IMG/VR virus record: IMGVR_UViG_3300026290_000001
From: a virus
DNA: 64,000 nucleotides
Reading direction: 5' to 3' (one strand)
Shown: piece by piece, positions 2-13,640 of the stretch
Layout of the letters: every line of letters starts with the position of its first letter
How positions within the stretch are numbered: position 1 is the stretch's first letter
Notes under the pieces: generated by a model
The model's database searches: none
Told to the model about the DNA's origin: nothing
The model's input: the letters and a program-made list of their open reading frames with translations, nothing else
Program-made: the position numbers and the translations under genes

Positions 2-106
2 AACGAAATGTATAATATTTTTGGTAACAGCAGTAAGAACCAACCAGAATTATCCATAGACGAAATGAATTATCTTGAAGGTAGATGTATTAAAGACTTT
101 AATTAA
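2..106 (+). CDS. hypothetical protein, 3' end only (gene starts upstream of window)
   Basis: Open frame from window edge ending at TAA 104-106; no start inside window. Confidence 0.3.
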   Translation, partial: NEMYNIFGNSSKNQPELSIDEMNYLEGRCIKDFN

Positions 107-166
107 TACCTTGTTAAAGTGCATTAGTATAACAGACAGTTAATGCACTTTATAGAGGGTATTACC
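101..166 (+). promoter_or_regulatory. conserved upstream element copy A: AATTAATACCTTGTTA, 9-bp inverted repeat with GTATAACAGACAG loop, then TATAGAGGGTATTA
   Basis: Direct reading; same flanks and loop motif recur at 572-639 with a different stem sequence. Confidence 0.4.
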
Positions 167-200
167 TCAAAAAATATATAACAGGAAAGGAATTGATAAA

Positions 201-566
201 ATGAGTAATGACACCAAAAAAACCTTAAAAAACCTTTTCAAATTATCCCACAAAATTTCCCTATACGTCCCGACAAAGGACAAAAATAATCAAGAACTAT
301 CCCAAGAATTAATCTCTAAAATGGTTGATCTCACAGCTTCCAAATTTTCCGAAGTTAACGGCGGCGCAACTAGTACCAATGCACTAGGATATTGGAAATC
401 AGTTGCTGGAGAACTCATAAAGGAAAATGTTGTAGTAGTTTTTTCCTATTCAAATGAATTGGAAAAATCCATTGAAGCAGCTATAGAAACTGGAGAACAA
501 CTAAAAGAAATAGCTAATCAAGATGCAATAAGTTTAGAAGTGAATAACGAACTATATTTCATATAA
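201..566 (+). CDS. hypothetical protein
   Basis: Track ORF, ATG 8 nt after SD-like AGGAA/GGAATTGA region. Confidence 0.55.
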   Translation: MSNDTKKTLKNLFKLSHKISLYVPTKDKNNQELSQELISKMVDLTASKFSEVNGGATSTNALGYWKSVAGELIKENVVVVFSYSNELEKSIEAAIETGEQLKEIANQDAISLEVNNELYFI

Positions 567-571
567 CAAAA

Positions 572-639
572 AATTAATACCTTGTTAGGATATATAAGTA
601 TAACAGATTGCTTATATATCCTATAGAGGGTATTAATCC
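572..639 (+). promoter_or_regulatory. conserved upstream element copy B: AATTAATACCTTGTTA, 12-bp inverted repeat with TATAACAGATTG loop, then TATAGAGGGTATTA
   Basis: Direct reading; paired with copy A. Confidence 0.4.
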
Positions 640-674
640 AAAAAAATAAAAACTGAAAGGAAGGAATTGATAAA

Positions 675-1178
675 ATGAAAACAAAAATTAACTATTTTTC
701 CGACTGCCAAACCATAGAAGCAATAAAAAAACGTTACCGGGAACTTGCCCAAAAATATCACCCCGATCATGCAGGAGGAGACGGGGAAACCATGAAGGAA
801 ATTAATCTGCAATATGAATCTTACAAAGGTATGACATTCACCGCAACTAATCACGAAACAGGTAAAACTTATGAACAGAACTTCGATCCGTTTGATGGTT
901 ACCGGGAAATTATAACCGCACTAATAAACATACCTAACATAACAATAGAACTAATCGGATCATGGCTCTGGATCACAGGCGAAACAAAACCTATCAAAGA
1001 ATACCTCAAAGAATTAGGTTTTAAATTTTCCGGCAAAAAAATTGCATGGTACTATCACTCAGGCAAATACCGCAAAAAATCTAAAAAAAATCTAACCATA
1101 GACGAAATTAGGAACATGTATGGAAGTGAAAAGGTTAACCAGGACAAGGAAAAGGAAAATAAACAGGTTATTGCTTAG
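675..1178 (+). CDS. J-domain (DnaJ-like) protein
   Basis: IEAIKKRYRELAQKYHPDHAGGD contains the J-domain HPD signature with flanking helix pattern. Confidence 0.7.
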   Translation: MKTKINYFSDCQTIEAIKKRYRELAQKYHPDHAGGDGETMKEINLQYESYKGMTFTATNHETGKTYEQNFDPFDGYREIITALINIPNITIELIGSWLWITGETKPIKEYLKELGFKFSGKKIAWYYHSGKYRKKSKKNLTIDEIRNMYGSEKVNQDKEKENKQVIA

Positions 1179-1220
1179 CAGTATATCCTTATAAAAAAAT
1201 AATAACAGGGAGGTGGAAAA

Positions 1221-1412
1221 ATGAATTATATCAAACAATTGCAATTGGAGAATCAGGAATTAAAAAACCGTATAACAGAATCGCAAGAAGTTATAACAGA
1301 ACTTTATCGCTACTTAATGTTGCCTAAATTTGCAGAAAATAATATGGTAAACAAGCAGGATATTTTTAATAGACTTGATCCGGTAAGAATATTGCTTAAT
1401 ACTACTATATAA
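1221..1412 (+). CDS. hypothetical protein
   Basis: Track ORF with GGAGGTGG SD. Confidence 0.45.
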   Translation: MNYIKQLQLENQELKNRITESQEVITELYRYLMLPKFAENNMVNKQDIFNRLDPVRILLNTTI

Positions 1413-1535
1413 TCCTTTATCCAATAGCACTATAACCGTAAAATAAATAACAGCATATAGTGCTATTCAATAAGAGATTATAAACGATAAGAGATTATAA
1501 ACGATAAATAATCAAGGAAGGAGGTATATAGTATA

Positions 1536-1874
1536 ATGAACAACAATTATAACAGAAGGAGAAAAAACGGCAAAATGATATCAACTTTTACAATAGCAAA
1601 CAAAACATATTCTATCCGCTTGACCGCACACGCTAAGCAACGAATAACAGATCGCAATTTAGACCTATATCAAGTAACAGGTTCCATACTATCACTAGGA
1701 CAGCAAAACATAGAACAATATTCCGGCAGTAATAGAGACATATTTATCATGGACAAACAGAATAATTTTAGTATTGTATGTAATATAACATACCGCACTA
1801 TAACAATTGTAACTGTCATAGACACGACAGATTGTTGGGTAAAAAATGGAACTATTGCGGTAAGACTGAAATAA
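1536..1874 (+). CDS. hypothetical protein
   Basis: Track ORF with AAGGAGGT SD. Confidence 0.45.
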   Translation: MNNNYNRRRKNGKMISTFTIANKTYSIRLTAHAKQRITDRNLDLYQVTGSILSLGQQNIEQYSGSNRDIFIMDKQNNFSIVCNITYRTITIVTVIDTTDCWVKNGTIAVRLK

Positions 1875-1894
1875 TAAAGGGGAGGAGAAAATAT

Positions 1895-2329
1895 ATGTTA
1901 ACAAAAAATAATAAAAACCTATCTAAAAATCCTATCAATATAACATATATAGCAGAATATACGGATGAATTAGAAGTTAATTCAGACTATTCAAATATAG
2001 TAAAAATATCTAACATAACAGATTTAGATAGTTTAATTTTTACTATGCTAGAATTACGCAAGCAACAGAAAAATAATATTTCTATAGGTTATACCATAGC
2101 GGATAATAAAAATAACTGGCTTATTGAAGATTATGCCAATACCCTGGAATTTTTAACCGATTCTAAATTATCGGATAAATTGGAAACTAAAGTAAGTAAA
2201 CAATCTGAACTAATAACAGAACTGTCAAAAGAGATAGAACTATACCAGCAATTTTTAAAAAAATACAATGCTATGGATCAGTTTAACAAGTTTAAACGGG
2301 AACAGGGAGAACAGGAATTAAACCAGTAA
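1895..2329 (+). CDS. hypothetical protein
   Basis: Track ORF 1832 trimmed to in-frame ATG that follows GGGGAGGAG SD. Confidence 0.5.
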   Translation: MLTKNNKNLSKNPINITYIAEYTDELEVNSDYSNIVKISNITDLDSLIFTMLELRKQQKNNISIGYTIADNKNNWLIEDYANTLEFLTDSKLSDKLETKVSKQSELITELSKEIELYQQFLKKYNAMDQFNKFKREQGEQELNQ

Positions 2330-2344
2330 TATAAAAATTACCGC

Positions 2345-2374
2345 TTGCATATACTGTTGACAGCATGATATAAT
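2345..2374 (+). promoter_or_regulatory. sigma-A-type promoter (TTGCAT-18-TGaTATAAT)
   Basis: Direct reading of -35/-10 hexamers with extended -10 TG. Confidence 0.5.
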
Positions 2375-2406
2375 AACTAATAACAGGGTAGGAGGTGAAT
2401 AACAGC

Positions 2407-2583
2407 ATGATAACAATAAAAGTTAATCGATACGGCAATGAAGCAACTATAATAGTAGAAGGAAATTGGCGAGGAGTATCACAAGAAATTAAAAAACAAA
2501 TACGCAAAAAAGAAAATCAATTCTATTCAATTTCTCAAGCAAAACAAATCAAGCAAGAACTGGAAAAATTATTGGCAAGGTAA
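2407..2583 (+). CDS. hypothetical protein
   Basis: Track ORF 2395 trimmed to ATG after GGAGGTG SD. Confidence 0.45.
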   Translation: MITIKVNRYGNEATIIVEGNWRGVSQEIKKQIRKKENQFYSISQAKQIKQELEKLLAR

Positions 2584-2607
2584 ATAAAATAGGCAGGAGG
2601 TAATAAA

Positions 2608-2775
2608 ATGGATAGTAGAGAACAGGCGATTAAACATTATGAACAGAAGTATAACATTAGCATTATTTATGATAGCAATGAAAGAACATATACAATATAT
2701 AGTCAAAACAGACTTTATGGTTATGTGGCAAGTCTTAAAGATTTAGACGATTACATGCAATTTAAACAGGGTTAA
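2608..2775 (+). CDS. small hypothetical protein (55 aa), not in track
   Basis: ATG after GCAGGAGGT SD; fills an otherwise empty gap. Confidence 0.4.
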   Translation: MDSREQAIKHYEQKYNISIIYDSNERTYTIYSQNRLYGYVASLKDLDDYMQFKQG

Positions 2776-2868
2776 GCAAATTAAGCAAGGCCATAAAACC
2801 TTGCAGCAAGGGTAAAATACCTTTGCTAGAGGGTTTTAAGGAACAAAAAAGGAGGGAGTAATAAACAT

Positions 2869-3084
2869 ATGGAAAAACGTATGGCAAAAACCTGTATAAC
2901 CAAAAAAGTTAAAGCAGAATTAAAATATCTTATTGACACAAAAGGCTATTGGTCAAAAGAAGTGAGGGAATATATAGAACAATTTCACTATTATAAAACA
3001 AGGGAATTACACGATATGGCACATGCTTATATTAATCATAACGAAGGCGAATTAACAAAGATTAACTATAAAATAACAGTATAA
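2869..3084 (+). CDS. hypothetical protein
   Basis: Track ORF with AGGAGGGAG SD. Confidence 0.5.
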   Translation: MEKRMAKTCITKKVKAELKYLIDTKGYWSKEVREYIEQFHYYKTRELHDMAHAYINHNEGELTKINYKITV

Positions 3085-3096
3085 GGAGGTAACACT

Positions 3097-3387
3097 ATGG
3101 AAAAATCACTAAAAGAAAAAGTAGGTTATATGAATCACTTAGGAATTAAACTAGCAGATTTAATTGATGCAGGTAAAATTGACTATAACAAGTTAACCGA
3201 CAAAGAATCAGAACTGATTTATGCAGTTGCGGACGGATTATCTGAGGAATATATCATGCGAAATATTGAAGGCCGTTGCTCTATTAAATCAATGCTGGAT
3301 AATTCTTTAGAAAAACTAGAAATCTATGTGAATAACAAAATAGAAGGATTAACGGCAATATTTGAAAAATACGATATAACAGTATAA
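3097..3387 (+). CDS. hypothetical protein
   Basis: Track ORF with AAGGAGGT SD. Confidence 0.5.
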   Translation: MEKSLKEKVGYMNHLGIKLADLIDAGKIDYNKLTDKESELIYAVADGLSEEYIMRNIEGRCSIKSMLDNSLEKLEIYVNNKIEGLTAIFEKYDITV

Positions 3388-3444
3388 TAATTCACATTGC
3401 ACCAAATAACCGTTTCATGTCGTTTTAAAGGAGGTAATAACAGA

Positions 3445-3672
3445 ATGATTAAAAAGGAACAAATACTCGAAGGTTTAGAACTAACTAAGCAATACATACT
3501 TGATTCTTTAATAGTTAATGAACAGATGAAAAAAACAACAGGCCAGCAACAAGTAATAGAAGATTTAGAAAAAACTATTAAAGATATATTGGAAAACATT
3601 GAATCATTACAATCTGATGTTTATAGAAAATATTTGTTATCACAAGGATTTTTAAATAAGGAGGATAAATAA
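3445..3672 (+). CDS. hypothetical protein
   Basis: Track ORF 3397 trimmed to ATG after AAGGAGGT SD. Confidence 0.5.
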   Translation: MIKKEQILEGLELTKQYILDSLIVNEQMKKTTGQQQVIEDLEKTIKDILENIESLQSDVYRKYLLSQGFLNKEDK

Positions 3673-3676
3673 AATT

Positions 3677-4030
3677 ATGACAAATAAACAATATAACAAA
3701 ATGGTAGAACAGATAGTTAAATATGCAATATTAGCTGAACTACCAGGAATCACAAAAAAAGAAGTTAATAACAGATATAACAATGTCCTAGAATCACATG
3801 GAGTAGAAAAGGCAGATTCAGCATTGCAATATACGTTAAAACAATTTAAAGAAAGAGCAAAAGAAAGAGAAATGAAATTCTGGCAGCAAGTAAAAACTGA
3901 AACATTTGATAAATTGCATTCTTACCCATGTAGTGTTAGAGATTTAAAAAGCATGATCAAAACTGGTGAAATTGACATAACAGGATTTACAAAAGAACAG
4001 GATATAAGATTAAGACTAGAATTAATTTAA
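3677..4030 (+). CDS. hypothetical protein
   Basis: Track ORF. Confidence 0.5.
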   Translation: MTNKQYNKMVEQIVKYAILAELPGITKKEVNNRYNNVLESHGVEKADSALQYTLKQFKERAKEREMKFWQQVKTETFDKLHSYPCSVRDLKSMIKTGEIDITGFTKEQDIRLRLELI

Positions 4031-4136
4031 TACTTCTTCCGAGTGCTAAACTAAACATATAATATAAATAACAGTAACAAGTTTAGCACTTCAAAGAGGG
4101 ATTAAAAAATAATAAACAAGAGGAGGTATAACAAGC

Positions 4137-4337
4137 ATGAACAAAACATTAAAAATCCAAAATACCCTTAGAGTACAAGAAAAAATCAAAGAATTAAATC
4201 TACCTTTGCAGCGTAACAAAAAAGGCTATTTTGAATTTATGTTTGATATCAGGGATCGGAAAAACTATCAAAATAACCAGGTAAGGGAATTAGTAAAGTG
4301 GGCTGAAATTGAAGGGATTAACTGGAGCATTAGATAG
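4137..4337 (+). CDS. hypothetical protein
   Basis: Track ORF with GAGGAGGT SD. Confidence 0.5.
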   Translation: MNKTLKIQNTLRVQEKIKELNLPLQRNKKGYFEFMFDIRDRKNYQNNQVRELVKWAEIEGINWSIR

Positions 4338-4416
4338 ATAGTATAATTGGCAATTTCAACATTCGTTGAAAATCTATAACAGATTGAAAATATAATTATT
4401 AAGGAGGTAACAACAC

Positions 4417-4662
4417 ATGAAAAGATATAACGTGAACATGTATCAGAATAATATACTTGTTAGAATAATAACAATTTATTCCACCACAAATAATGGCGCA
4501 ATCATTAAGGCCAAAAGAATATTTTTTTCAGATTGGTCAAAAGAACACATAAAAAAATACAAACATACTATCTCAGTAATAGCAAAACATTCTGATCTTT
4601 ACGGTAATTCATTGCCGGAGAATATTAAAGGTTATAATTATTCAATTCCTTATATTAAATAA
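4417..4662 (+). CDS. hypothetical protein
   Basis: Track ORF with AAGGAGGT SD. Confidence 0.5.
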   Translation: MKRYNVNMYQNNILVRIITIYSTTNNGAIIKAKRIFFSDWSKEHIKKYKHTISVIAKHSDLYGNSLPENIKGYNYSIPYIK

Positions 4663-4672
4663 TCCCTCTTTT

Positions 4673-4703
4673 AACCTGCTATTCTCCAGCAGGTTATTTT
4701 CTT
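4673..4703 (+). terminator. Rho-independent terminator-like hairpin
   Basis: AACCTGCT / AGCAGGTT 8-bp stem, 7-nt loop, then ATTTTCTT, directly after stop of 4417-4662. Confidence 0.6.
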
Positions 4704-4721
4704 AATATAATAACTATCCTA

Positions 4722-4750
4722 TTGACAGTATGAATACAACCTGATAGTAT
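4722..4750 (+). promoter_or_regulatory. sigma-A-type promoter (TTGACA-17-TAGTAT)
   Basis: Direct reading. Confidence 0.55.
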
Positions 4751-4785
4751 TATATTAACAAAATAATTTTAAGGAGGTTAATTAA

Positions 4786-5331
4786 ATGGAAACTAGAACA
4801 GAATACATTAACCGCAATAGGGTAGAAATTGAAGCTGAAGGAATTGATTTTAGTGATTGTATGGCAGAAACCTTGGAAGATGAATACTATGATGAAATTG
4901 TAATCAAGCATATCAAAGCAGGTGGAATGATCTCGAATGAAGTCTATAAAGATTTAACAGACGGACAGCAATATCATTTTAATAAATTTCTTAATTGGGA
5001 TAATGATAAAATAATTAACAGTGACTATGAACAGGAAGTTAAAAGACTAAAGAAAATATCCGATGAAAAGCATAAAATATATTTGCAGGAACAGGAACAA
5101 AAACGGCAAGAACAGGAAATCAGAGAACAAATAAAAGAACAAAAAGCAAAAGATCAAATTAAACAAAAATTAACACAAGAAATAGAAATTTTAAAAAATT
5201 GCTTAGTTGATTATGATAACTTATCTATGTTTGGCAAGGGGCGTATTACCAGGTTTAATTATGAACAGATGCAGGTGGAGATTAAGAAAAAAATTGCAGT
5301 AATGGAGCAACAGATAAAAAACATAATATAA
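4786..5331 (+). CDS. hypothetical protein with Q/E/K-rich coiled-coil-like segment
   Basis: Track ORF; low-complexity QEQEQKRQEQEIREQIKEQ stretch. Confidence 0.5.
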   Translation: METRTEYINRNRVEIEAEGIDFSDCMAETLEDEYYDEIVIKHIKAGGMISNEVYKDLTDGQQYHFNKFLNWDNDKIINSDYEQEVKRLKKISDEKHKIYLQEQEQKRQEQEIREQIKEQKAKDQIKQKLTQEIEILKNCLVDYDNLSMFGKGRITRFNYEQMQVEIKKKIAVMEQQIKNII

Positions 5332-5348
5332 TAAGGAGGGATAACAAA

Positions 5349-5510
5349 ATGAAATTTAAAATAGGCTATTTAGCAGATAACAAAAAGGCGAGAAAAGTAA
5401 TGGAAATATACGGCAAAAACGAAAAAGATGCAATAAGTAAAGCGAATGCAATATTATATAGTCAAGATAAAGAGGAATTAAATAATAGGAAGGGGGAAAT
5501 CAAACCATGA
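5349..5510 (+). CDS. small hypothetical protein (53 aa), not in track
   Basis: ATG after AGGAGGG SD; stop overlaps next start (ATGA). Confidence 0.35.
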   Translation: MKFKIGYLADNKKARKVMEIYGKNEKDAISKANAILYSQDKEELNNRKGEIKP

Positions 5511-5725
5511 AAAAATCCATTTCAATTACTGTTACTTCAGGTGAACCATTCAAAATAATTAGGCCAGGAGAAGAAAAATATAGCAATATTCAGAATTTCC
5601 GATTCTCTTCAAAAATCCAAGCAATAAAACAATTAAAAAAACATTTCAACATTGATTTGACATATCAGCATTTAAAGCAAAAAGGCATAGTGAAAATTGA
5701 TGATTATCAAATCCATGTAAAATAA
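5507..5725 (+). CDS. hypothetical protein
   Basis: Track ORF. Confidence 0.45.
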   Translation: MKKSISITVTSGEPFKIIRPGEEKYSNIQNFRFSSKIQAIKQLKKHFNIDLTYQHLKQKGIVKIDDYQIHVK

Positions 5726-5843
5726 CCACTCATCACCAAAGATTGATTTTATCACGCTTTTCCGGCTCAGAAATCCCATTATATAGGGATTAAAAAATTC
5801 AAAAATATTGGAATAAAAAAATAAAATTATGCATAGAATACTA

Positions 5844-5872
5844 TTGACAATATGAATTAGATAGTTTAATAT
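5844..5872 (+). promoter_or_regulatory. sigma-A-type promoter (TTGACA-17-TAATAT)
   Basis: Direct reading. Confidence 0.5.
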
Positions 5873-6084
5873 AATAAAAAAGGAGGTGGCACAATGATAA
5901 AAGTAGAATTAAAATATAACAATATTTTATTTAAGGCACAATTTAATTCACATCAGGAATTATCAGACTTTTTAAACGAAAATCAAGGAATAGAAATAAT
6001 TAGTTTAGGTTAGCACTTTTAAGCCTGGGCATTCGCTCAGGGTTAAGGGTACTAGAAAAAAACAAAAGAGAAGGAGGAGATAGA

Positions 6085-6351
6085 ATGGAAAACCTATTAA
6101 ATAATTATTTAAAATACTTAGCAGGACAATATACCAGAGATGATATAAAAGCTGAAATAATAGAATTCAAAACTAATAACGGTAATGCTGAAGAGTTTGA
6201 AAAAATGATCATAACAGCAACCAAAGGAGTTTATAAGAAAAATTCAGCAGTAGAAGATTTTTGGAAGTATTATAATGATTATACTCCTATTCCAAAATCA
6301 AAAACTGCATACGGAACAGGGCATATGAAAGATTTTAGAAAGTATTTTTAA
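6085..6351 (+). CDS. hypothetical protein
   Basis: Track ORF with GAAGGAGGAG SD. Confidence 0.5.
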   Translation: MENLLNNYLKYLAGQYTRDDIKAEIIEFKTNNGNAEEFEKMIITATKGVYKKNSAVEDFWKYYNDYTPIPKSKTAYGTGHMKDFRKYF

Positions 6352-6392
6352 CACCAAAAGCAAATTTGGTGCAATGTGAAAGGGGTAACAGA

Positions 6393-6536
6393 ATGAAAGC
6401 TAAAACAATTAGAATGACAAGAGTATGCAGAATATGTCAATGTCCTTTTACTTATAGATCAGAGGAAAAATTGCAGGAAGGTGATAAAAACGGGCATATA
6501 TGTAACACTTGTAAAAAACAGAAGGTGAGCAAATAA
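6393..6536 (+). CDS. small Cys-rich zinc-ribbon-like protein (47 aa), not in track
   Basis: CxxC...CxxC spacing (CRICQC ... CNTC). Confidence 0.35.
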   Translation: MKAKTIRMTRVCRICQCPFTYRSEEKLQEGDKNGHICNTCKKQKVSK

Positions 6537-6584
6537 CAGAATCAAACTGGTATTCTATCATTAAATATTGAGGAGGAATCGAAA

Positions 6585-6860
6585 ATGATATTGTGGAGAG
6601 TAACAGATGGAAAATATAAAACAGATTACATTAGAGCAAACAATTTAGATGAAGCTGGAAGAATTTTTAAAGAAAAGCATAACAGGCCAGGAGTAGAATT
6701 TCAACCAACAGATGAGAAAATACAAGCGGTATATTTTACAGACAATCCGTTTGATCCTGCATATTTTAAGGGAACAATAACACAAGCTAAAAAGGGAGCA
6801 AGGTTATATATTAGACAATGGCAGTTAGATGCACAAATTGATAGAATAGTAACAATGTAA
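6585..6860 (+). CDS. hypothetical protein
   Basis: Track ORF with GAGGAGG SD. Confidence 0.5.
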   Translation: MILWRVTDGKYKTDYIRANNLDEAGRIFKEKHNRPGVEFQPTDEKIQAVYFTDNPFDPAYFKGTITQAKKGARLYIRQWQLDAQIDRIVTM

Positions 6861-6908
6861 CCAAATGACGAATTGATATACTGTAAAAATAAGGGAGGAA
6901 TAATTAAA

Positions 6909-7109
6909 ATGTTAGTTAAAACAATAACAGACGAAACAAATGGTAAAAGATGGGAAATATTCAAAAAGTCTGATAATGAATATTTTTATAAATACTATGA
7001 GTTTTTTAAACAAATAGGCTGGAAATTAACAGGAAGAGAAGGAGATCATATCAATGGATATTTAACAAAGGATTGTATTGAATGGGAATTTGACATAACA
7101 ATAATATAA
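6909..7109 (+). CDS. hypothetical protein
   Basis: Track ORF 6873 trimmed to ATG after AAGGGAGGA SD. Confidence 0.45.
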   Translation: MLVKTITDETNGKRWEIFKKSDNEYFYKYYEFFKQIGWKLTGREGDHINGYLTKDCIEWEFDITII

Positions 7110-7133
7110 ATCAGTAGCAGGTTAATTCCTGCT

Positions 7134-7165
7134 TAGTATATCAGGACTATTCCCCTGATATACTA
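7134..7165. repeat. perfect 12-bp inverted repeat TAGTATATCAGG / CCTGATATACTA with 8-nt loop
   Basis: Direct reading; preceded by a second shorter hairpin; no T-tract, so operator-like rather than clear terminator. Confidence 0.5.
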
Positions 7166-7204
7166 ACAAGGGATTAAACATACAAAATAAAAGGAGGTAA
7201 TAAA

Positions 7205-7411
7205 ATGTTAGAATATTATTGTCACGTTAAAACGGTCAATACCAGATATCCAGACGATCAAAGAATCAAATGTATTATGACTTTAACAGAATATAAAGAT
7301 GAGGATGGTAATATTTACAGAAAATCATTCTATACAAAAAACGGGAACAAACCAATAATACCGCAAAAAGCAACACATGATGAATTGATAGAACTTAAAA
7401 AACAGTTTTAG
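7205..7411 (+). CDS. hypothetical protein
   Basis: Track ORF with AAGGAGGT SD. Confidence 0.5.
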   Translation: MLEYYCHVKTVNTRYPDDQRIKCIMTLTEYKDEDGNIYRKSFYTKNGNKPIIPQKATHDELIELKKQF

Positions 7412-7438
7412 TTTTTTCTATTATTTTTACTTTTACTA

Positions 7439-7468
7439 TTGACAATATGAAACCTAACGTATATAATA
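7439..7468 (+). promoter_or_regulatory. sigma-A-type promoter (TTGACA-18-TATAAT)
   Basis: Direct reading, consensus hexamers. Confidence 0.55.
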
Positions 7469-7502
7469 ATAATATAAATACTATTAAAAAAGGAGGCCAC
7501 AA

Positions 7503-7652
7503 ATGAAAACTATTGATGAATTAAAGCAAGGCGAATGCCAGATAATCACAAAGCAAGGTAAAGTATTCAAAGGATTTTACAGCGAAGAATATGAAGCAGT
7601 ATTCTTTACAATTCCATCTAACTATGAAATTATTGGTTATATCCAAGATTAA
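7503..7652 (+). CDS. small hypothetical protein (49 aa), not in track
   Basis: ATG after AAGGAGG SD. Confidence 0.35.
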   Translation: MKTIDELKQGECQIITKQGKVFKGFYSEEYEAVFFTIPSNYEIIGYIQD

Positions 7653-7670
7653 AAAAGGAGTGTGTTACAA

Positions 7671-8759
7671 ATGGCAATTAAAAAAGCTAACATTCAATGG
7701 AGTGCTAAACAGTTAACCAAATCAATTGAAAAAGGTACTATTACCTTTGACAATGCGGTGCAAAGAGGTTATGTATGGGATCAAGATAGAAAATCCTTAC
7801 TCATTCATAGTATGCTGGAGGGTTTTCCTATACCTGCATTTTTCGCAGCAAAAGATGAAAATGGCTATAGTATGCTTGATGGAAAACAAAGATCAGAAGC
7901 AATTTCCGGCTACATAAACGGCAATTATTTCTTAACTAATTTACCAGAGGTTATGGCGGAAATCACAGTACAAAATACAGAAAATAAGAAGGAAACAATA
8001 GAAGAAGAACTTGACATTAACGGCTCTTACTTTTCAGATTTGCCCGAAGATTTACAAGACCGTATTAGAGACTATTCCCTTACCGTTTACTATTTTGATG
8101 GAATAACCGAAGAAGAGGTAAACGAAATGTTTTTCCGGCTTAACAATGGCAAACCACTTACCGCTATTGAACTGACCAGAGTGAAGGCAAAATCTTTAGA
8201 AAAATTTCAAGAAATCGGTCAGCATCAATTATTTACCTCTACACTAACCGAAAAAGCAATTTCTAAGTATACCCATGAGGATTTGGTAATAAAATCCTGG
8301 GTGATGCTTAACACAGAAAATCCAGACTTAGGAACTAAGAACATTCGTTCTATTGTAGAGGTAAAAGATATTACAAACGAACAAGCGGATAATCTAAAAA
8401 CAGTTTATGACAAGGTTTTAGAAGTCTATACCATTTTGACCGCAGGAGACAAACAGGATAAAAAAACCGCAAAGCGTATTATAACCAGAACTCATTTCCT
8501 AAGTTTACTGCCTATCATTTCCAAACAGATTGACAGTAATTCCTGGAATACAGAACAATTTACAAGCTGGGTAAGACGTTTCTTTGGTAGTGATGAAGGT
8601 ACAACGATTAATGAAGAATACAACGAACTATCTAAAAGTGGAAGCAATAAGCCAGATAACATTAGAAGAAGGTTAGAGATTATCAAGATAGATTTTAGAC
8701 AATACCTGCTCAGTAGTAAAGATATTGAAGATAGTAGTCAAGATCAAGGTGTAGCGTAA
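7671..8759 (+). CDS. DUF262 / ParB-like NTPase-domain protein
   Basis: QRGYVWDQDRKSLLIHSMLEGFPIP and LDGKQRSEAI resemble the DUF262 (GmrSD N-domain, DndB-like) signature; no HNH/DUF1524 motif seen; track ORF 7662 trimmed to ATG. Confidence 0.55.
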   Translation: MAIKKANIQWSAKQLTKSIEKGTITFDNAVQRGYVWDQDRKSLLIHSMLEGFPIPAFFAAKDENGYSMLDGKQRSEAISGYINGNYFLTNLPEVMAEITVQNTENKKETIEEELDINGSYFSDLPEDLQDRIRDYSLTVYYFDGITEEEVNEMFFRLNNGKPLTAIELTRVKAKSLEKFQEIGQHQLFTSTLTEKAISKYTHEDLVIKSWVMLNTENPDLGTKNIRSIVEVKDITNEQADNLKTVYDKVLEVYTILTAGDKQDKKTAKRIITRTHFLSLLPIISKQIDSNSWNTEQFTSWVRRFFGSDEGTTINEEYNELSKSGSNKPDNIRRRLEIIKIDFRQYLLSSKDIEDSSQDQGVA

Positions 8760-8768
8760 TTGAAAAAA

Positions 8769-8798
8769 AGGGGTGCTATATAGCATCCCTTAATAATC
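8769..8798 (+). terminator. terminator-like hairpin
   Basis: AGGGGTGCTAT / ATAGCATCCCT imperfect stem just after the DUF262 stop; weak T-tract. Confidence 0.45.
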
Positions 8799-8827
8799 TA
8801 AAAATAATTTTATTGTATCTTTTGCTA

Positions 8828-8856
8828 TTGACAGTATGAAATGTATCATGTATACT
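8828..8856 (+). promoter_or_regulatory. sigma-A-type promoter (TTGACA-17-TATACT)
   Basis: Direct reading. Confidence 0.55.
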
Positions 8857-8897
8857 ATAATCATAATATAAAATAATTAAAAAAAGGAGTGTTATAA

Positions 8898-9392
8898 ATG
8901 ACTAACGATCTATGTGTTGTTAATACTACAAATTTTTGGATTTACAATTTTGCTAGTAACCAGGAACATGCAGAAGAAGTATTGTCCAGAGCTATTGAGG
9001 CAAATAAAGAGGATATTAAAACATGGGGAAACCATTGTAAAAATTATCCTGATATTGGACAATTTAAGGTTTATCTGGAAGAAGCAAAAAATAAAAAATA
9101 TGAGATTATGCCTTATAGTGAATACATCAAACTAGAAAGGAATTACTATCTAAATAGGCCGTTAACTGAAATAACCGCAGAACGATATAACGAAATGCTA
9201 AATGTATTACCTCCTATAAAATGGTGTACTAAAAACAATGTTGAAATGTTTTGCATATCTGAAATGCTAACAGGAAATTATACATCTCAGTATATGCACA
9301 ACAAAACAACAGATAAATATTATCATAAAACAGTGGACATTACCGACCAGACAACATGGGGTTATAACTTTATAAAAAGAATGGAGGTTTAA
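8898..9392 (+). CDS. hypothetical protein
   Basis: Track ORF. Confidence 0.5.
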   Translation: MTNDLCVVNTTNFWIYNFASNQEHAEEVLSRAIEANKEDIKTWGNHCKNYPDIGQFKVYLEEAKNKKYEIMPYSEYIKLERNYYLNRPLTEITAERYNEMLNVLPPIKWCTKNNVEMFCISEMLTGNYTSQYMHNKTTDKYYHKTVDITDQTTWGYNFIKRMEV

Positions 9393-9396
9393 CAAT

Positions 9397-9777
9397 ATGA
9401 CACAAACACAAGAACAAATTAAAATAGGTGATTACAAAGACATAGCACAGCAAATTGGAGGCAATAAATTTCTAGCAATGACAGGCAGCAAATTCCAGTA
9501 TTATGGCTATGATGAGTTAGGTTATGTATACTTGATGATTAAGTTATCCAAAAACCAGTCTAAGGCTCAGTATTTAAAAATCCAGTTAAACGGATTAGAT
9601 TTATACGATCTAACCTTCAGCCAGATTAAAAAAACATTAACACCACTGGCAAAAGAATTAGGTATTAAAATCTATGATGAAGAAGTTATAACAGTTAAAG
9701 AATACAAAGACGTTTATGCCGATATGTTGCAAGACATTTTCACCTCAGTAACAGGAATGTACACAAGGTTATTCTAG
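9397..9777 (+). CDS. hypothetical protein
   Basis: Track ORF with GGAGGT SD. Confidence 0.5.
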   Translation: MTQTQEQIKIGDYKDIAQQIGGNKFLAMTGSKFQYYGYDELGYVYLMIKLSKNQSKAQYLKIQLNGLDLYDLTFSQIKKTLTPLAKELGIKIYDEEVITVKEYKDVYADMLQDIFTSVTGMYTRLF

Positions 9778-9857
9778 GTTAATATAGAGCAGTTTTAAGG
9801 TATCTGCTTTAACAAAAACCTTCATTTTTAAAATATAAATATTGGAGGTATAACAAT

Positions 9858-10163
9858 ATGAGTATAACAGTTATTAACTTATCACATCCAACAGAACAAT
9901 TAAAAACCATAACGGAAAACTGGAACGATTTACCGCAAGAATTACAGCAAATTATACTTGCAGCAGACTACTACACGCTTAAACCTCAATCCCTGCTAAT
10001 CTATAAAGATAGGCAATGTATTCTTGATTGTATGGTATCGATAGATATTTTTGAAAGTGGACAAGTGAATTGGAATAGAATAGTAATACAAAATTGCTAT
10101 AGTAAAGACGGGTTACTATATGATTATTCAGAGTGGTTTAAGACCTGGGAAGGTTTTATATAA
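9858..10163 (+). CDS. hypothetical protein
   Basis: Track ORF with GGAGGT SD. Confidence 0.5.
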   Translation: MSITVINLSHPTEQLKTITENWNDLPQELQQIILAADYYTLKPQSLLIYKDRQCILDCMVSIDIFESGQVNWNRIVIQNCYSKDGLLYDYSEWFKTWEGFI

Positions 10164-10177
10164 GGAGGCAATAACAA

Positions 10178-10372
10178 ATGAAATGGTATGTAACAATAGT
10201 ACCAATGCCAGATGACCAACTATATGTAGGTATAACCGAAGGTGACTATGGAACAGATATAACAATCAGTGAACACTACACGCAAGAACAAGCAGAATTA
10301 GCTTGTGAACAGTATTCCAGGGATCATAAAATTTCTATGTTTGGAGAATACAGGCAGGAGGTAAATAACTAA
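10178..10372 (+). CDS. hypothetical protein
   Basis: Track ORF with AAGGAGG SD. Confidence 0.45.
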   Translation: MKWYVTIVPMPDDQLYVGITEGDYGTDITISEHYTQEQAELACEQYSRDHKISMFGEYRQEVNN

Positions 10373-10539
10373 TGAATGAGGGATTGACAATATTCCTAGT
10401 GGTAGCAGGTTATTTTGTGGCAGGTTTTGCCTTGTTAGGTATATGTAGTTTAATCGTTGAATATACTTACTCACAATCAAAATATAATAATCAAAATAAA
10501 CAGGCTATAACCACTAACAAATTCAATAGAGTAGCATAA
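10372..10539 (+). CDS. small membrane protein (55 aa), not in track
   Basis: ATG overlapping upstream stop (TAATG); hydrophobic span LTIFLVVAGYFVAGFALLGICSLIV. Confidence 0.35.
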   Translation: MNEGLTIFLVVAGYFVAGFALLGICSLIVEYTYSQSKYNNQNKQAITTNKFNRVA

Positions 10540-10734
10540 GGAGGGACTAAACAAATGAAAATTATTTCAATTCAAGATCACCGCAACGATAAACGGCAAA
10601 AACAAGAATATGCTAGAAAACTATTGAAGAAGATTAACCAGGAACAGGACAGACGCAAGCAGCAAGGCCAACGATATTTGAATGAGCAGATACATAAAAT
10701 TGATATAACTATTTAAGAAAAATAAATTTAGTGC

Positions 10735-10763
10735 TTGCTTTCATATTGTGGGTATGATATACT
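10735..10763 (+). promoter_or_regulatory. sigma-A-type promoter (TTGCTT-17-TGaTATACT)
   Basis: Direct reading, extended -10. Confidence 0.45.
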
Positions 10764-10800
10764 AAGCACATAAAATAAAAACATTAAAGGAGTGCCGAGA

Positions 10801-11184
10801 ATGAGTTTTACAAAAGCAGAATTAAGAGATTACAGGGTGGAAATTGAACAGGCATTGCAAGGAATAGCGGAAAGACATAATATTAACATCAAGGCAGGGA
10901 ATATCAGTTATTCAGCGAATGACTTTAAACTAACACTAGAAGTTACACAAAAAGAAGTCAACGGCCTGTTATATGAACAAGCAGAATTTAACAAAGATTG
11001 TATACTTTACGGATTTAAACCAGAAGATTATAAAAAAGAATTCTCCATGAATGGCAAAACTTTTGCTATAACTGGTTTTAATCATAAGGCTCATAAAATG
11101 CCTATACTGGCAAAAGGGAACGATGGTAAGGGGTATAAATTCGCTTGTGATACAGTTAAAAGGTTAATAGGTGTAACAGCATAA
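10801..11184 (+). CDS. hypothetical protein
   Basis: Track ORF 10792 trimmed to ATG after AAGGAG SD. Confidence 0.5.
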   Translation: MSFTKAELRDYRVEIEQALQGIAERHNINIKAGNISYSANDFKLTLEVTQKEVNGLLYEQAEFNKDCILYGFKPEDYKKEFSMNGKTFAITGFNHKAHKMPILAKGNDGKGYKFACDTVKRLIGVTA

Positions 11185-11228
11185 CAACCAGACCAAATAA
11201 CTTTTTCATAAAGAAAGGAAGTGGAGAA

Positions 11229-11396
11229 ATGAAATGGTATATAATAAAGATTAGTAATAAAACCTATTATAAATATGGTGGAAACATAAGAGACAAACAA
11301 TTTGCCACAAAGTTTCCTGAAAGCGAATTACATATTGCTCAGAATGTAATAAAACAATTCAATTACAAAAATGCTAAGATAGAAGAAGTGGAATAA
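11229..11396 (+). CDS. small hypothetical protein (55 aa), not in track
   Basis: ATG after AAGGAAGTGGAG SD. Confidence 0.35.
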   Translation: MKWYIIKISNKTYYKYGGNIRDKQFATKFPESELHIAQNVIKQFNYKNAKIEEVE

Positions 11397-11437
11397 CAGA
11401 ACAGAATTCAGATTTTATCATAAGGAGGAATGACACA

Positions 11438-11662
11438 ATGCAGTATTTTGAAATATCGTATAGACGTACTTATCATTGGATAGATAAAAAATACGTAAAA
11501 ACTGAACTAGGTGTTACAGATGCAATTAGAAAAACGGGATTAAAAAAGACCATTACTGATGTGACAGAAATAACAGAAGAACAATACAAAGAATATAAAG
11601 CAAAACAAAAAGCATTAAAAGAAGCAAAAAAGGCAAGAGAAGCAGAAAACTTTATACAATAA
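11438..11662 (+). CDS. hypothetical protein
   Basis: Track ORF with AAGGAGG SD. Confidence 0.5.
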   Translation: MQYFEISYRRTYHWIDKKYVKTELGVTDAIRKTGLKKTITDVTEITEEQYKEYKAKQKALKEAKKAREAENFIQ

Positions 11663-11711
11663 TCAATTATCATAAAACTGACATTTTATTGAAAGTTGGG
11701 AGGTAAATAAA

Positions 11712-12098: not shown

Positions 12099-12207
12099 AT
12101 TGTTGAATTAACAACCTAACACCAAATAGGTATTTGGTCGCTATTTTATGCCTTAAAAACGCCAATTTCTATGCATTTCATTTTTCTAAGTTTTTGTGAT
12201 TTTACTA

Positions 12208-12236
12208 TTGACAGCATGATTATTAACTGATAACAT
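12208..12236 (+). promoter_or_regulatory. sigma-A-type promoter (TTGACA-17-TAACAT)
   Basis: Direct reading. Confidence 0.45.
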
Positions 12237-12272
12237 TATTAATATAAAATTATTGAAAAGGAGTTGGATTAA

Positions 12273-12443: not shown

Positions 12444-12469
12444 AAACCCCCTCTTAGGAGGTAAAAATT

Positions 12470-13286: not shown

Positions 13287-13362
13287 AACTTGGGATTGGT
13301 AAAAAGTAAGTAGTGATTAGACAATAACAGTAGTTATAATATAATAAGGATGGTGAAAGAAA

Positions 13363-13632: not shown

Positions 13633-13640
13633 TTATCATG

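What the first reader, a model, noticed from the sequence alone, without database searches (positions are those of the whole stretch)
101..639. Conserved early-region element with compensatory stem changes and invariant TATAACAGA loop
Upstream of the genes at 201 and 675 the same element occurs: AATTAATACCTTGTTA, an inverted repeat, a loop containing GTATAACAGA, then TATAGAGGGTATTA. The stem arms differ completely between copies (AGTGCATTA/TAATGCACT versus AGGATATATAAG/CTTATATATCCT) yet remain perfectly complementary, a pattern expected under selection for structure. Related hairpins with an ATAACAG loop followed by AGAGGGATTA-like sequence occur near 1420-1470 and 4045-4100. The TTGTTA to TATAAC spacing is 11 nt, too short for a sigma-A promoter, so this may be a site for a phage-encoded regulator or an RNA processing or antitermination structure.
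Basis: seen in the sequence. Interest (0 to 1): 0.5.

Follow-up and report, generated by a model that had tools for sequence, protein, structure and literature searches.

The report
Early-mRNA processing hairpins plus polar heptamer
The two look-alike elements are real, structure-conserved hairpins that sit between the first genes of a large temperate phage's early operon and most likely act as RNase III-type RNA processing and stability sites, while their 'invariant loop' word ATAACAG is a separate, unexplained one-strand signal scattered through the whole early operon.

Summary
Copies at 101-166 and 572-637 share exact flanks that also pair with each other. Each element is therefore one ~23-26 bp two-tier hairpin with a conserved asymmetric internal loop, a variable upper stem and a loop.

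It belongs to a family: six members in window 1-7200 and about 50 in 12 related metagenomic phage loci. All lie on the coding strand, about 25-45 nt before a ribosome-binding site. Covariation is strong: 19 of 23 pairs change on both sides and 95.6% of cells are paired.

It is not a sigma-A promoter, not an intrinsic terminator, and matches no Rfam family. A covariance model built only from this clade picks five repeated hairpins in the phage SPO1 host-takeover module. These share the internal loop UUGYUAG...YAURGAG. SP82, a relative of SPO1, is the documented case of B. subtilis RNase III cutting early mRNA at such hairpins.

Best reading (0.45): intercistronic RNase III-type processing and stability sites.

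The loop is not invariant in relatives. ATAACAG is a polar heptamer: 407 plus-strand versus 5 minus-strand copies, confined to the early operon and enforced through synonymous codons. Its function is unknown.

The parts
101..166 (+). Element copy 1. Outer stem 104-112/156-164, bulged G113, inner stem 114-127/140-152 plus 154, loop 128-139 (contains ATAACAG at 129-135). Lies 35 nt before the ATG at 201.
   Evidence: Covariance model R1 scores 81.2 bits on the + strand and 33.9 bits on the - strand.
572..637 (+). Element copy 2. Outer stem 573-583/627-637, bulged G584, inner stem 585-600/609-623 plus 625, loop 601-608. Lies 38 nt before the ATG of the DnaJ-domain gene at 675.
   Evidence: R1 scores 81.2 bits. 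Orthologous copies sit upstream of the DnaJ-like gene in L006, L008, L180, L181 and L185, with compensatory stem changes.
1408..1482 (+). Two-tier hairpin of the same family, a different flank class (UAUAAUCCUUUAU / AUAAGAGAUUAUA). Inner stem 1423-1434/1456-1467. The 21-nt loop ends in ATAACAGCA. Lies before the gene at 1536.
   Evidence: (z = -5.6). Same flank class in L006:10791, L008:12448, L172:5534 and L002:13219.
2791..2841 (+). Two-tier hairpin with flanks AAAACCUUGCAG / CUAGAGGGUUUU, a 10-bp inner stem and a 3-nt loop. Lies before the gene at 2869.
   Evidence: -26.5 kcal/mol. R1 gives a weak hit of 18 bits. The homologue L006:11745-11801 has the same flanks and a different, complementary inner stem.
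4026..4106 (+). Two-tier hairpin. Outer stem 4033-4038/4094-4099, inner stem 4041-4052/4080-4091, 27-nt A-rich loop with ATAACAG at 4068-4074. Lies before the gene at 4137.
   Evidence: z = -5.8. R1 scores 26.4 bits, E = 0.0014. Close homologue at L185:2515-2603.
7122..7177 (+). Two-tier hairpin with flanks UUAAUUCCUGCUUAG / CUAACAAGGGAUUAA, a 13-bp inner stem and an 8-nt loop. Lies before the gene at 7205.
   Evidence: -29.4 kcal/mol. R1 hits it on the palindromic complement at 32.4 bits. Conserved in L011:13986, L177:6872 and L185:4395.
129..23812 (+). Polar heptamer ATAACAG: 41 plus-strand copies between 129 and 23812. Minus-strand copies only at 10966 and 19339. None from 24 to 64 kb.
   Evidence: In relatives, 407 plus-strand versus 5 minus-strand copies. 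It is the top-enriched 7-mer in every relative. Synonymous-codon test.
1536..1874 (+). Conserved early gene (DUF4258, 112 aa) with a predicted RelE/ParE-superfamily fold. Listed only as a candidate partner for the heptamer in the speculative reading.

Best explanation
The element is an RNA hairpin in the intercistronic leaders of one long early transcript of a roughly 138-kb temperate phage of low-GC Firmicutes. It is distantly SPbeta-like: it carries an MrpR-type regulator, a YonO-type RNA polymerase and a YorL-type Pol III alpha.

Shown:
- It belongs to a large family of two-tier hairpins with a median of 23 bp.
- The lower stem and the asymmetric internal loop are conserved (5'-YCYUG-U-UA / 5'-UA-U-A-G-AGGR).
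- The upper stem is freely covarying.
- The loop is A/C-rich.
- All members have the same orientation as the genes and lie about 25-45 nt before the next Shine-Dalgarno site.
- The internal-loop motif is shared with five repeated hairpins in the SPO1 host-takeover module.

Inferred:
- The host RNase III recognises the duplex of about two helical turns.
- Because of the internal loop, it makes a single cut in the 3' arm, as reported for SP82 and T7 early RNAs.
- The upstream cistron is then left with a protective 3' hairpin.
- The downstream cistron gets a new 5' end that starts with the purine-rich (SD-like) AGAGGG/AAAGGA tract shortly before its ribosome-binding site.
- This would uncouple the stability and translation of neighbouring early genes.

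The heptamer ATAACAG, often placed at the 3' side of the loop, is a second, independent signal of the early operon whose mechanism is not established.
For: Structure and selection:
- z = -5 to -8.
- On a sequence-only MAFFT alignment of 14 elements, 94.6% of cells are paired against 80% in shuffles. Fifteen of 23 pairs change on both sides. Slid controls give 34-54% paired.
- On 22 covariance-model hits, 95.6% are paired, 19 of 23 pairs covary, and there are 113 compensatory cells against 32 expected.

Flank covariation: UACC..GGUA changes to UAUC..GAUA.

Strand:
- G.U 29 versus A.C 14 cells, and 8 of the A.C cells fall at one internal-loop position.
- The 3' arm is always purine-rich and the loops are always A/C-rich on the coding strand.

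Context:
- The window is identical to a 138-kb contig.
- A sigma-A-like promoter lies about 1.4 kb upstream of the window start.
- Hairpins precede the genes at L188 7792, 8371, 8666, 9140 and 10001 within one co-oriented gene string.
- The hairpin-to-start distance is about constant.

Size: helix median 23 bp, range 19-29.

Link to a known RNase III substrate class:
- Model R1, built only from this clade, gives as its best hits in SPO1 1-14000 five repeated intergenic hairpins on the transcribed strand (E 0.0015 to 1.2).
- They share UUG(N)UAG ... YAU(N')GAG with N-N' paired. U-A here becomes C-G in SPO1.
- SP82 targets have internal loops and are cut once in the downstream arm (PMC1935012). 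The primary references are listed in PMC4838370.
- RBS-dependent stabilisation of SP82 RNA is reported in PMC7509114.

No Rfam family matches.
Against: - No transcript ends or cleavage data exist for this phage.
- That the SPO1 hairpins are the SP82-type RNase III sites rests on my recollection plus their position. The original papers (Panganiban & Whiteley 1983; Mitra & Bechhofer 1994; Hue et al. 1995) are not held.
- The SPO1 matches are weak in score (11-22 bits).
- Folding energy does not distinguish the + strand from the - strand (mean -23.0 vs -22.0 kcal/mol, p = 0.21), so a DNA cruciform is not excluded thermodynamically.
- RNase III alone does not explain why the loops are long and A/C-rich, nor why inner stems so often reuse a GAGUGCUA/UAGCACUC core.
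- The host is unknown.
Confidence: 0.45

Rival explanations
1. The hairpin is the RNA binding site of a phage-encoded or host protein, for example a translational operator or a processive-antitermination element of the nut/put kind. That protein would read the conserved internal loop and/or the loop word.
For: - Internal-loop nucleotides are conserved far beyond what pairing needs. UGUUA and UAUAGAG are invariant or nearly so.
- The loops are kept unpaired and G/U-poor.
- The element repeats at the head of a >60-kb co-oriented gene string that also contains terminator-like hairpins.
Against: - No candidate RNA-binding regulator was identified.
- The loop sequence and length are not conserved (8-33 nt).
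- About 50 copies per 12 loci, one before nearly every early gene, is unlike nut/put, which have one per operon.
- The same internal loop occurs in the unrelated phage SPO1. That points to a host factor common to Firmicutes rather than a clade-specific phage protein.
Confidence: 0.15
2. The hairpin is only an exonuclease barrier or 5'/3' stabiliser. Cleavage would be made by another enzyme, such as RNase Y in the A/U-rich flank, and the hairpin or the SD-like purine tract would protect the new ends from RNase J1 and PNPase, as in cggR-gapA or STAB-SD.
For: - Stable stem-loops sit at cistron borders.
- There is a purine-rich SD-like tract in the 3' arm and an A-rich tail.
- In B. subtilis, hairpins downstream of an RNase Y cut set the abundance of the product (PMC11780869).
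Against: - A simple barrier does not need the conserved asymmetric internal loop.
- It also does not need a constant length of about two helical turns.
- The SD-like tract is sequestered in the stem unless the stem is cut or opened.
Confidence: 0.15
3. The element acts on DNA. It could be a cruciform or inverted repeat serving as a recombination or cassette boundary that shuffles small early genes (like PeSL cassettes of T4-type phages). It could also be a site for the adjacent MrpR-like tyrosine-recombinase-type repressor.
For: - The early region is mosaic. The same element flanks different genes: it lies after the DnaJ-like gene in L002 but before it in the window, and an identical copy is in L022.
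- An MrpR_C_cat-like gene lies divergently upstream in all relatives.
- Folding energy is equal on both strands.
- Inner stems reuse GAGTGCTA in either orientation.
Against: - Upper-stem sequence is free while pairing is kept. This argues for a folded single strand, not a duplex operator.
- G.U outnumbers A.C.
- Orientation relative to the genes is strictly constant.
- No promoter accompanies the stem-loop.
- The attC core sequences are absent.
- SPBRE is a 15-bp motif in promoters (PMC10516654), unlike these elements of about 65 nt.
Confidence: 0.1
4. It is a promoter, either sigma-A or a hairpin-loop promoter for a phage RNA polymerase (N4-like logic, or the YonO-type enzyme of this clade), with ATAACAG as its core.
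For: - The loop shows TATAAC/TATAAT-like words on the non-template strand.
- AACA is the core of the AR9 non-virion RNAP promoter (own knowledge).
- A YonO-type RNAP gene exists in relatives.
Against: - The -35/-10 spacing is 11 nt here and 5-26 nt in relatives.
- ATAACAG has no flanking consensus at all.
- It occurs between the SD and the ATG, directly abutting SDs, and 175 times inside genes.
- Many hairpins lack it.
- The YonO-type gene lies in the opposite, leftward module.
Confidence: 0.05

Closest known systems
Bs-RNase III processing sites in early mRNA of Bacillus phages SP82/SPO1 (Panganiban & Whiteley 1983; Mitra & Bechhofer 1994)
   Same: - Repeated hairpins in leaders or intercistronic regions of early genes.
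- Lower stem and internal loop conserved between copies; upper stem variable but complementary.
- In SPO1, the same internal-loop words occur: UUGYUAG on the 5' side and YAURGAG on the 3' side, with one compensatory pair inside.
- A ribosome-binding site follows within about 30-55 nt.
   Different: - The SPO1 hairpins are GC-rich, with 3-5 nt loops and lower stems GGUUG/GAGCC.
- Here the stems are AU-rich and the loops are 8-33 nt, A/C-rich, and often carry ATAACAG.
- The phages are unrelated (Herelleviridae versus an SPbeta-like temperate siphovirus clade).
- Cleavage is documented only for SP82.
RNase III sites of the phage T7 early region (R0.3, R0.5, R1, R1.1, R1.3)
   Same: - Hairpins of about two helical turns, interrupted by an asymmetric internal loop.
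- They lie between early cistrons of one long transcript.
- A single cut in the 3' side leaves a 3' hairpin on the upstream mRNA (PMC1935012 for the rule).
   Different: No sequence similarity. The host is Gram-negative. T7 sites have small terminal loops.
PeSL (promoter-early stem-loop) mobile regulatory cassettes of T4-type phages
   Same: Short conserved stem-loop modules flank many small, shuffled early ORFs in a hyperplastic region.
   Different: PeSLs contain a sigma-70 early promoter. No promoter accompanies these hairpins. Recombination at the elements was not tested here.
T4 RegB endoribonuclease and its GGAG targets (comparison for the ATAACAG heptamer only)
   Same: - A short RNA word concentrated in early transcripts, often at or next to Shine-Dalgarno sites.
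   Different: - GGAG is itself the SD, whereas ATAACAG has no known translational role.
- No nuclease activity or cleavage is shown.
- The fold match cannot separate RelE-type RNases from ParE-type gyrase poisons.
Polar chromosomal oligomers (Chi, KOPS/SRS)
   Same: A short word with extreme strand bias, present in coding sequence at the cost of codon choice.
   Different: - Those are spread over whole replichores and are G-rich.
- ATAACAG is confined to one operon of about 17-24 kb and absent from the remaining 40 kb of the window, which has the same strand skew.

Membership tests
Phage early-mRNA RNase III processing hairpins (SP82/SPO1, T7 type) | Duplex of about two helical turns (at least ~20 bp) in a single hairpin | tested here: met
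   54 family hairpins have a median of 23 bp, range 19-29. The model has 23 pairs.
Phage early-mRNA RNase III processing hairpins (SP82/SPO1, T7 type) | Helix interrupted by an internal loop or bulges that are conserved between copies | tested here: met
   Bulged G on the 5' side and U and G on the 3' side in all class-1 copies. UGUUA and UAUAGAG are invariant or nearly so.
Phage early-mRNA RNase III processing hairpins (SP82/SPO1, T7 type) | Located between cistrons or in leaders of early transcripts, on the transcribed strand | tested here: met
   All copies are on the coding strand, 25-45 nt before an SD, downstream of one sigma-A-like promoter. The transcript itself was not observed.
Phage early-mRNA RNase III processing hairpins (SP82/SPO1, T7 type) | Sequence and structure similarity to the SP82/SPO1 sites | tested here: inconclusive
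   R1 finds five SPO1 hairpins (21.7 to 11.4 bits, E 0.0015 to 1.2) with shared UUGNUAG/YAUN'GAG. Their identity with the published SP82 sites could not be checked because the papers are not held.
Phage early-mRNA RNase III processing hairpins (SP82/SPO1, T7 type) | Cleavage by RNase III in vitro or rnc-dependent ends in vivo | not testable with these tools
   Needs experiment.
Sigma-A (sigma-70 type) promoter | -35 and -10 hexamers 16-18 bp apart | tested here: not met
   The TTGTTA-TATAAC spacing is 11 nt in both copies and 5-26 nt in relatives. The scan lists no site at the elements.
Intrinsic (Rho-independent) terminator | G+C-rich stem followed by a U tract | tested here: not met
   The stems are followed by A-rich sequence on the + strand. 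No T run follows on either strand. Not listed by the terminator scan.
Any Rfam 15 family | Covariance-model match | tested here: not met
   No match at E <= 1 in window 1-26000.
PeSL cassettes (T4-type phages) | Early promoter physically coupled to the stem-loop | tested here: not met
   No promoter-like site is adjacent. The consensus promoters at 2341, 4722, 5844, 7439 and 8828 are not next to family hairpins.
Integron attC sites | RYYYAAC ... GTTRRRY core sites flanking an imperfect hairpin with extrahelical bases | tested here: not met
   Extrahelical bases exist, but the flanks are YCYTGTTA ... TATAGAGG on + and CCTCTATA ... TAACARGR on -. Neither fits the core.
SPBRE operators of the SPbeta repressor MrpR | 15-bp motif in early promoter regions, bound by MrpR | not tested
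   An MrpR_C_cat-like gene is adjacent. The SPBRE sequence is given only in a figure (PMC10516654). The elements are not in promoters.
Chi / KOPS-type polar oligomers (for ATAACAG) | Strand-polar word distributed along the whole replicon arm | tested here: not met
   Polarity is met (407 vs 5). However, the word stops at about 24 kb although the strand skews continue to 64 kb.
RegB/GGAG-type early-mRNA inactivation (for ATAACAG) | Early phage RelE-fold endoribonuclease plus its target word concentrated in early mRNA leaders | tested here: inconclusive
   RelE/ParE-fold early protein. The word is 2.3 times denser in non-coding than in coding sequence and often abuts SDs. There is no evidence of cleavage or of a link between the two.

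The most novel reading that the evidence does not exclude
ATAACAG is an RNA-level 'early transcript tag'. It would be a heptamer written into every early mRNA: in loops of the processing hairpins, next to ribosome-binding sites, and in coding sequence through forced codon choice. A sequence-specific factor would read it. The conserved early RelE-fold protein (window 1536-1874) is a candidate endoribonuclease, which would make this a RegB-like self-shut-off system with a new specificity. The two-tier hairpins would then be dual-purpose modules: RNase III site plus displayed tag.
Probability: 0.12. Interest if true: 0.8.

Novelty: new variant of a known kind. Interest (0 to 1): 0.55.

Why it matters
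If the hairpins are RNase III sites, three things follow.

- The SP82/T7 strategy of cutting a long early transcript into separately stabilised cistrons is used by a large, uncultured clade of temperate Firmicute phages from digesters and fermenters.
- The shared internal loop (UUGYUAG/YAURGAG) may be a portable recognition determinant for Firmicute RNase III. Its rules are still poorly defined (PMC11780869).
- About 50 natural variants with free upper stems form a ready-made mutational series.

The heptamer is the more surprising part. Its strand bias is about 80:1. It is 10-20 fold enriched and is the top 7-mer in every relative. It is enforced through synonymous codons: 121 of 161 Ile-Thr-G sites against 41 expected. 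It is strictly limited to one operon. No known phage signal has this combination, so it makes a concrete, testable case for a new transcript-class or DNA-tracking signal.

Tried and rejected
- **DNA pattern scans for the flanks.** The first viral scan gave one chance hit (L001). Two further viral scans did not return the contig of L002, although the pattern matches it locally. The genome-contig scan gave 17 hits, about my own rough estimate of the number expected by chance. All were unstructured, so no host or prophage was found.
- **blastn of 1-8000 against INPHARED phages:** no match.
- **AATACATA,** enriched from 24 to 64 kb, looked like a middle promoter. It is mostly the codons of an E-Y-I motif in paralogous methyltransferases.
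- **Sigma-B, TnrA, PhoP, DnaA-box and attC resemblances** were considered by eye and dropped for wrong spacing or core.
- **Chi-type reading of ATAACAG** was dropped. The orientation and the restriction to one operon do not fit.
- **RNA accessibility of ATAACAG** is only marginally above that of composition-matched 7-mers (0.287 vs 0.26, p = 0.02). This is not informative.
- **Plus versus minus strand folding energy:** no difference.
- **Clostridium phage Amboise,** the closest cultured Pol III alpha at 48%, has neither the heptamer enrichment nor R1 hits.
- **The 10-nt identity of the 5' flank with the complement of 16S rRNA UAACAAGGUA** (the 1492R primer core) was judged coincidental.
- **Papers not held:** Hue 1995 and the SPO1 genome paper. 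The SPBRE sequence could not be read.
Full report
**1. The observation**

The sequence is as described.
- The 16-mer AATTAATACCTTGTTA occurs exactly twice in the 64-kb window, at 101 and 572. The 14-mer TATAGAGGGTATTA occurs exactly twice, at 151 and 622.
- Between them lie unrelated but perfectly complementary arms and a loop containing GTATAACAGA.
- As RNA, the two regions fold to -23.1 and -31.3 kcal/mol, z = -5.1 and -8.2, and none of 200 shuffles is as stable. The hairpins at 1408-1482 and 4026-4106 behave alike.
The element is therefore a single two-tier hairpin of 23-26 bp. It has a bulged G on the 5' side and a bulged U and G on the 3' side.

**2. What genome this is**

- All genes of the window are on the + strand. 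GC content is about 28%, and G>C and A>T skews run throughout.
- The first ~24 kb hold dozens of small ORFs with strong Shine-Dalgarno sites.
- Further on come RtcB, an RNA ligase, at least 13 DNA methyltransferases, NAD ligase, a DnaB-type helicase, a RecJ-like exonuclease and a Pol III alpha-like polymerase.
- The window is identical, with 0 mismatches over 11,874 nt, to a 138,134-bp metagenome contig (ENA ERZ27268616 k141_863810, locus L188). Window position 1 is L188 8466.
- Upstream lie a divergent MrpR_C_cat-like tyrosine-recombinase-type gene and an ~800-nt almost C-free tract. A sigma-A-like promoter (TTGCAT-17-TAGTAT, about L188 7078-7110) follows, and then the co-oriented early genes.
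- Relatives carry YonO-type RNAP (Pfam RdRP), YonV_C, FtsK/SpoIIIE, Replic_Relax and ALP_N genes in the divergent module. This is an SPbeta-like temperate phage lineage of Firmicutes.
- Its closest cultured Pol III alpha is Clostridium phage Amboise, at 48%.

**3. The element is one subclass of a large hairpin family**

- Homologues of the DnaJ-domain early protein (675-1178) are common in digester, fermenter and gut metagenomes. I fetched 15 related loci.
- Almost every one has a two-tier hairpin 35-95 nt upstream of that gene.
- A hairpin scan finds about 50 such structures in 12 loci. They share a plan:
  - an outer stem whose 5' arm is pyrimidine-rich (AAUCCUUU, AAACCUUUU, UACCUUG, AUCCUG);
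  - a 3' arm that is purine-rich and SD-like (AAAGGAUU, AAAGGGUUU, AGAGGGUA, AGAGGAU);
  - a 2-3 nt internal loop;
  - a 10-14 bp inner stem;
  - an 8-33 nt A/C-rich loop;
  - the next SD and start codon 37-59 nt after the inner stem.
- In the window the members are 101-166, 572-637, 1408-1482, 2791-2841, 4026-4106 and 7122-7177. Two more lie just upstream of the window start, at L188 7692-7756 and 8277-8335.
- The first genes of the operon are thus each separated by one hairpin.

**4. Covariation**

- I aligned 14 class-1 elements by sequence only (MAFFT, A2) and scored them with a structure taken from the fold of copy 1.
  - 94.6% of cells are standard pairs, against 80.0 ± 1.2% in shuffles (0 of 500 reach it).
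  - 15 of 23 pairs change on both sides.
  - There are 55 compensatory cells against 15.8 expected.
  - Sliding the 3' partner by 1-3 columns gives 34-54% pairing.
- A covariance model (R1) finds 22 plus-strand hits with E < 1e-6 in the window and relatives. On their alignment, 95.6% of cells pair, 19 of 23 pairs covary, and there are 113 compensatory cells against 31.9 expected. That alignment is fitted to the model, so the sequence-only result is the cleaner one.
- Orthologous copies show stepwise compensation, for example AAGUGCAUUAG, GAAUACAUUAG and AAAUACACUAG with matching 3' arms. The outer stem switches UACC..GGUA to UAUC..GAUA.

**5. Which strand and which molecule**

- G.U cells (29) outnumber A.C cells (14, eight of them at one internal-loop position).
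- The purine-rich arm, the A/C-rich loop and the orientation relative to genes are constant.
- R1 scores 81 bits on the + strand and 34-37 bits on the - strand, but the model was built on the + strand.
- Folding energies of the two strands do not differ (mean -23.0 vs -22.0 kcal/mol, p = 0.21).
- I take the element to act as RNA, at about 0.8. A DNA hairpin is not excluded.

**6. What it is not**

- No sigma-70-type site is listed at the elements. The TTGTTA-TATAAC spacing is 11 nt here and 5-26 nt in relatives.
- No U tract follows on either strand.
- No Rfam family matches window 1-26000 at E <= 1.
- Consensus promoters in the region (2341, 4722, 5844, 7439, 8828) are not adjacent to family hairpins, unlike PeSL cassettes.

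**7. Link to known RNase III substrates**

- B. subtilis RNase III cleaves early mRNA of phage SP82. [quoted passage not shown] The same rule holds for T7 RNAs with an internal bubble (PMC1935012; primary references listed in PMC4838370).
- The ribosome-binding site downstream of the SP82 site stabilises the RNA (Hue et al. 1995, as cited in PMC7509114).
- I scanned the host-takeover module of SPO1, the sequenced relative of SP82.
- It contains five repeated hairpins with conserved flanks GGUUGCUAG ... YAUGGAGCC and variable, complementary upper stems. Each lies upstream of an early gene on the transcribed strand.
- R1, built only from the metagenomic clade, ranks these hairpins first, second, third, fifth and ninth among all hits in the 14 kb (21.7, 17.8, 15.8, 15.3 and 11.4 bits; E 0.0015-1.2).
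- The aligned identities are UUG-N-UAG on the 5' side and YAU-N'-GAG on the 3' side, with N-N' paired. It is U-A here and C-G in SPO1.
- That these SPO1 hairpins are the counterparts of the SP82 sites is my inference from position, repetition and recollection. The original papers are not held.
- The median helix of 23 bp fits the roughly two turns that RNase III needs. An enrichment of U-G wobbles in the distal box of B. subtilis substrates is reported (PMC11780869). A U-G pair is the commonest state at one outer-stem position here, in 11 of 22 sequences.

**8. Proposed mechanism**

- Shown: a family of conserved, covarying two-tier hairpins between early cistrons.
- Inferred:
  - Host RNase III cuts once in the 3' arm at the internal loop.
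  - The upstream cistron keeps a 3' hairpin.
  - The downstream RNA begins with the freed purine-rich tract about 25-45 nt before its SD. This may help 30S binding or protect against RNase J1, as STAB-SD and SP82 leaders do.
- Confidence is 0.45.
- Rivals are a protein-binding or antitermination RNA (0.15), a pure exonuclease barrier with another endonuclease (0.15), a DNA-level boundary or repressor site (0.10) and a promoter (0.05).

**9. The heptamer ATAACAG**

- The window has 41 plus-strand and 2 minus-strand copies, all before 24 kb. The whole-window expectation from shuffles is 14.4 for both strands together. Twenty copies lie in the first 4.7 kb against 1.1 expected, which makes it the top 7-mer there, ahead of AGGAGGT.
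- The same holds in every relative: 407 plus-strand versus 5 minus-strand copies in 15 loci. It is the top 7-mer in each, 10-20 fold enriched. There are only isolated copies, or none, on either strand upstream of the early operon: none in the ~7 kb before the L188 operon start and one in L002.
- There is no flanking consensus.
- Positions fall into four groups: hairpin loops (25 of 61 hairpins), directly 5' of SDs, between the SD and the ATG, and coding sequence.
- In coding sequence it uses only the two frames that avoid the TAA stop, and it is enforced by codon choice:
  - 121 of 161 Ile-Thr-G.. sites are ATA-ACA-G (40.7 expected, p = 6e-40);
  - 54 of 70 xAT-Asn-Ser/Arg sites are xAT-AAC-AGx (14.2 expected, p = 3e-24).
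- Density is 2.1 per kb in coding and 4.9 per kb in non-coding sequence (window-only figures).
- Predicted accessibility is hardly above that of matched 7-mers.
- It is not a promoter. It has no context, it abuts SDs, and it is too dense.
- It is not Chi/KOPS-like, because it is confined to one operon while the strand skews continue.
- Its restriction to one transcription unit and one strand points to an RNA-level or transcription-coupled role. Nothing more is shown.

**10. Verdict**

- The 'invariant loop' claim is wrong.
- The hairpins are a new variant of a known kind, RNase III-type sites of phage early mRNA.
- The polar heptamer has no known counterpart and is the part worth an experiment.

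Noticed in passing
window 28734-50951: An island of at least 13 DNA methyltransferase genes: N6_N4_Mtase x10, a phrog_67-type MTase at 32237, a D12-class MTase at 39721 and an MT-A70 at 42015. It is interspersed with a PAPS-reductase-like gene and a radical SAM gene. Many genes seem to start at TTG. Three more N6_N4 MTase genes (one cut by the locus end) lie on the other strand upstream of the early region (L188 1-1626).
   Followed up: partly
[not shown]
   Followed up: partly
L188 5900-6720 (about 1.7-2.6 kb upstream of window position 1): An ~800-nt tract between the MrpR-like gene and the early promoter is almost free of C on the + strand (2-6% C, 60-72% G+T). Relatives have 1.3-3 kb gene-free gaps at the same place, and L002 8800-9040 shows repeated C/A-rich units.
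   Followed up: no
window 107-116 and 578-587: The conserved 5' flank TACCTTGTTA is identical to the core of the universal 16S primer 1492R, that is, complementary to 16S rRNA UAACAAGGUA. The enriched words UAACAG/AUAACAA resemble that rRNA segment. Judged coincidental but not tested.
   Followed up: no
window 1469-1505: A direct tandem repeat ATAAGAGATTATAAACG x2 immediately follows, and overlaps, the 3' arm of the 1408-1482 hairpin. As a result, the outer 3' arm is present twice.
   Followed up: no
family hairpins in all loci (e.g. window 4041-4052/4080-4091; L008 7820; L011 9912): Many inner stems reuse the same core in either orientation (GAGTGCTA...TAGCACTC, or GTAGCACTC...GAGTGCTAC). So the 'variable' stem is not random. 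The reason is unknown; common descent with arm swapping or a duplex-specific contact are possibilities.
   Followed up: no
window 22024-23253 and 26355-27437: RtcB-type and Rnl-type RNA ligase genes lie just after the heptamer-rich region. This suggests RNA repair, for example against host anticodon nucleases or RNase toxins.
   Followed up: no
L187 (SPO1 NC_011421) 7107-7162(+), 11808-11855(-), 12226-12281(-), 12432-12488(-), 12727-12782(-): Five repeated hairpins in the SPO1 host-takeover module have conserved flanks GGUUGCUAG/YAUGGAGCC and covarying upper stems. No Rfam search was run on this locus. A family model could be built from them.
   Followed up: partly
L188 7193-7318 and 7572-7697: The first early gene (41 aa, MIMTEKMNIEIENIENILADNEL...) is duplicated 380 nt downstream. 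The second copy is followed by a family hairpin.
   Followed up: no
window 24000-64000: AATACATA is 7-fold enriched on the + strand (34 vs 4.6). Most copies encode an E-Y-I motif of the paralogous methyltransferases or sit between the SD and TTG start codons. It is not a promoter.
   Followed up: yes
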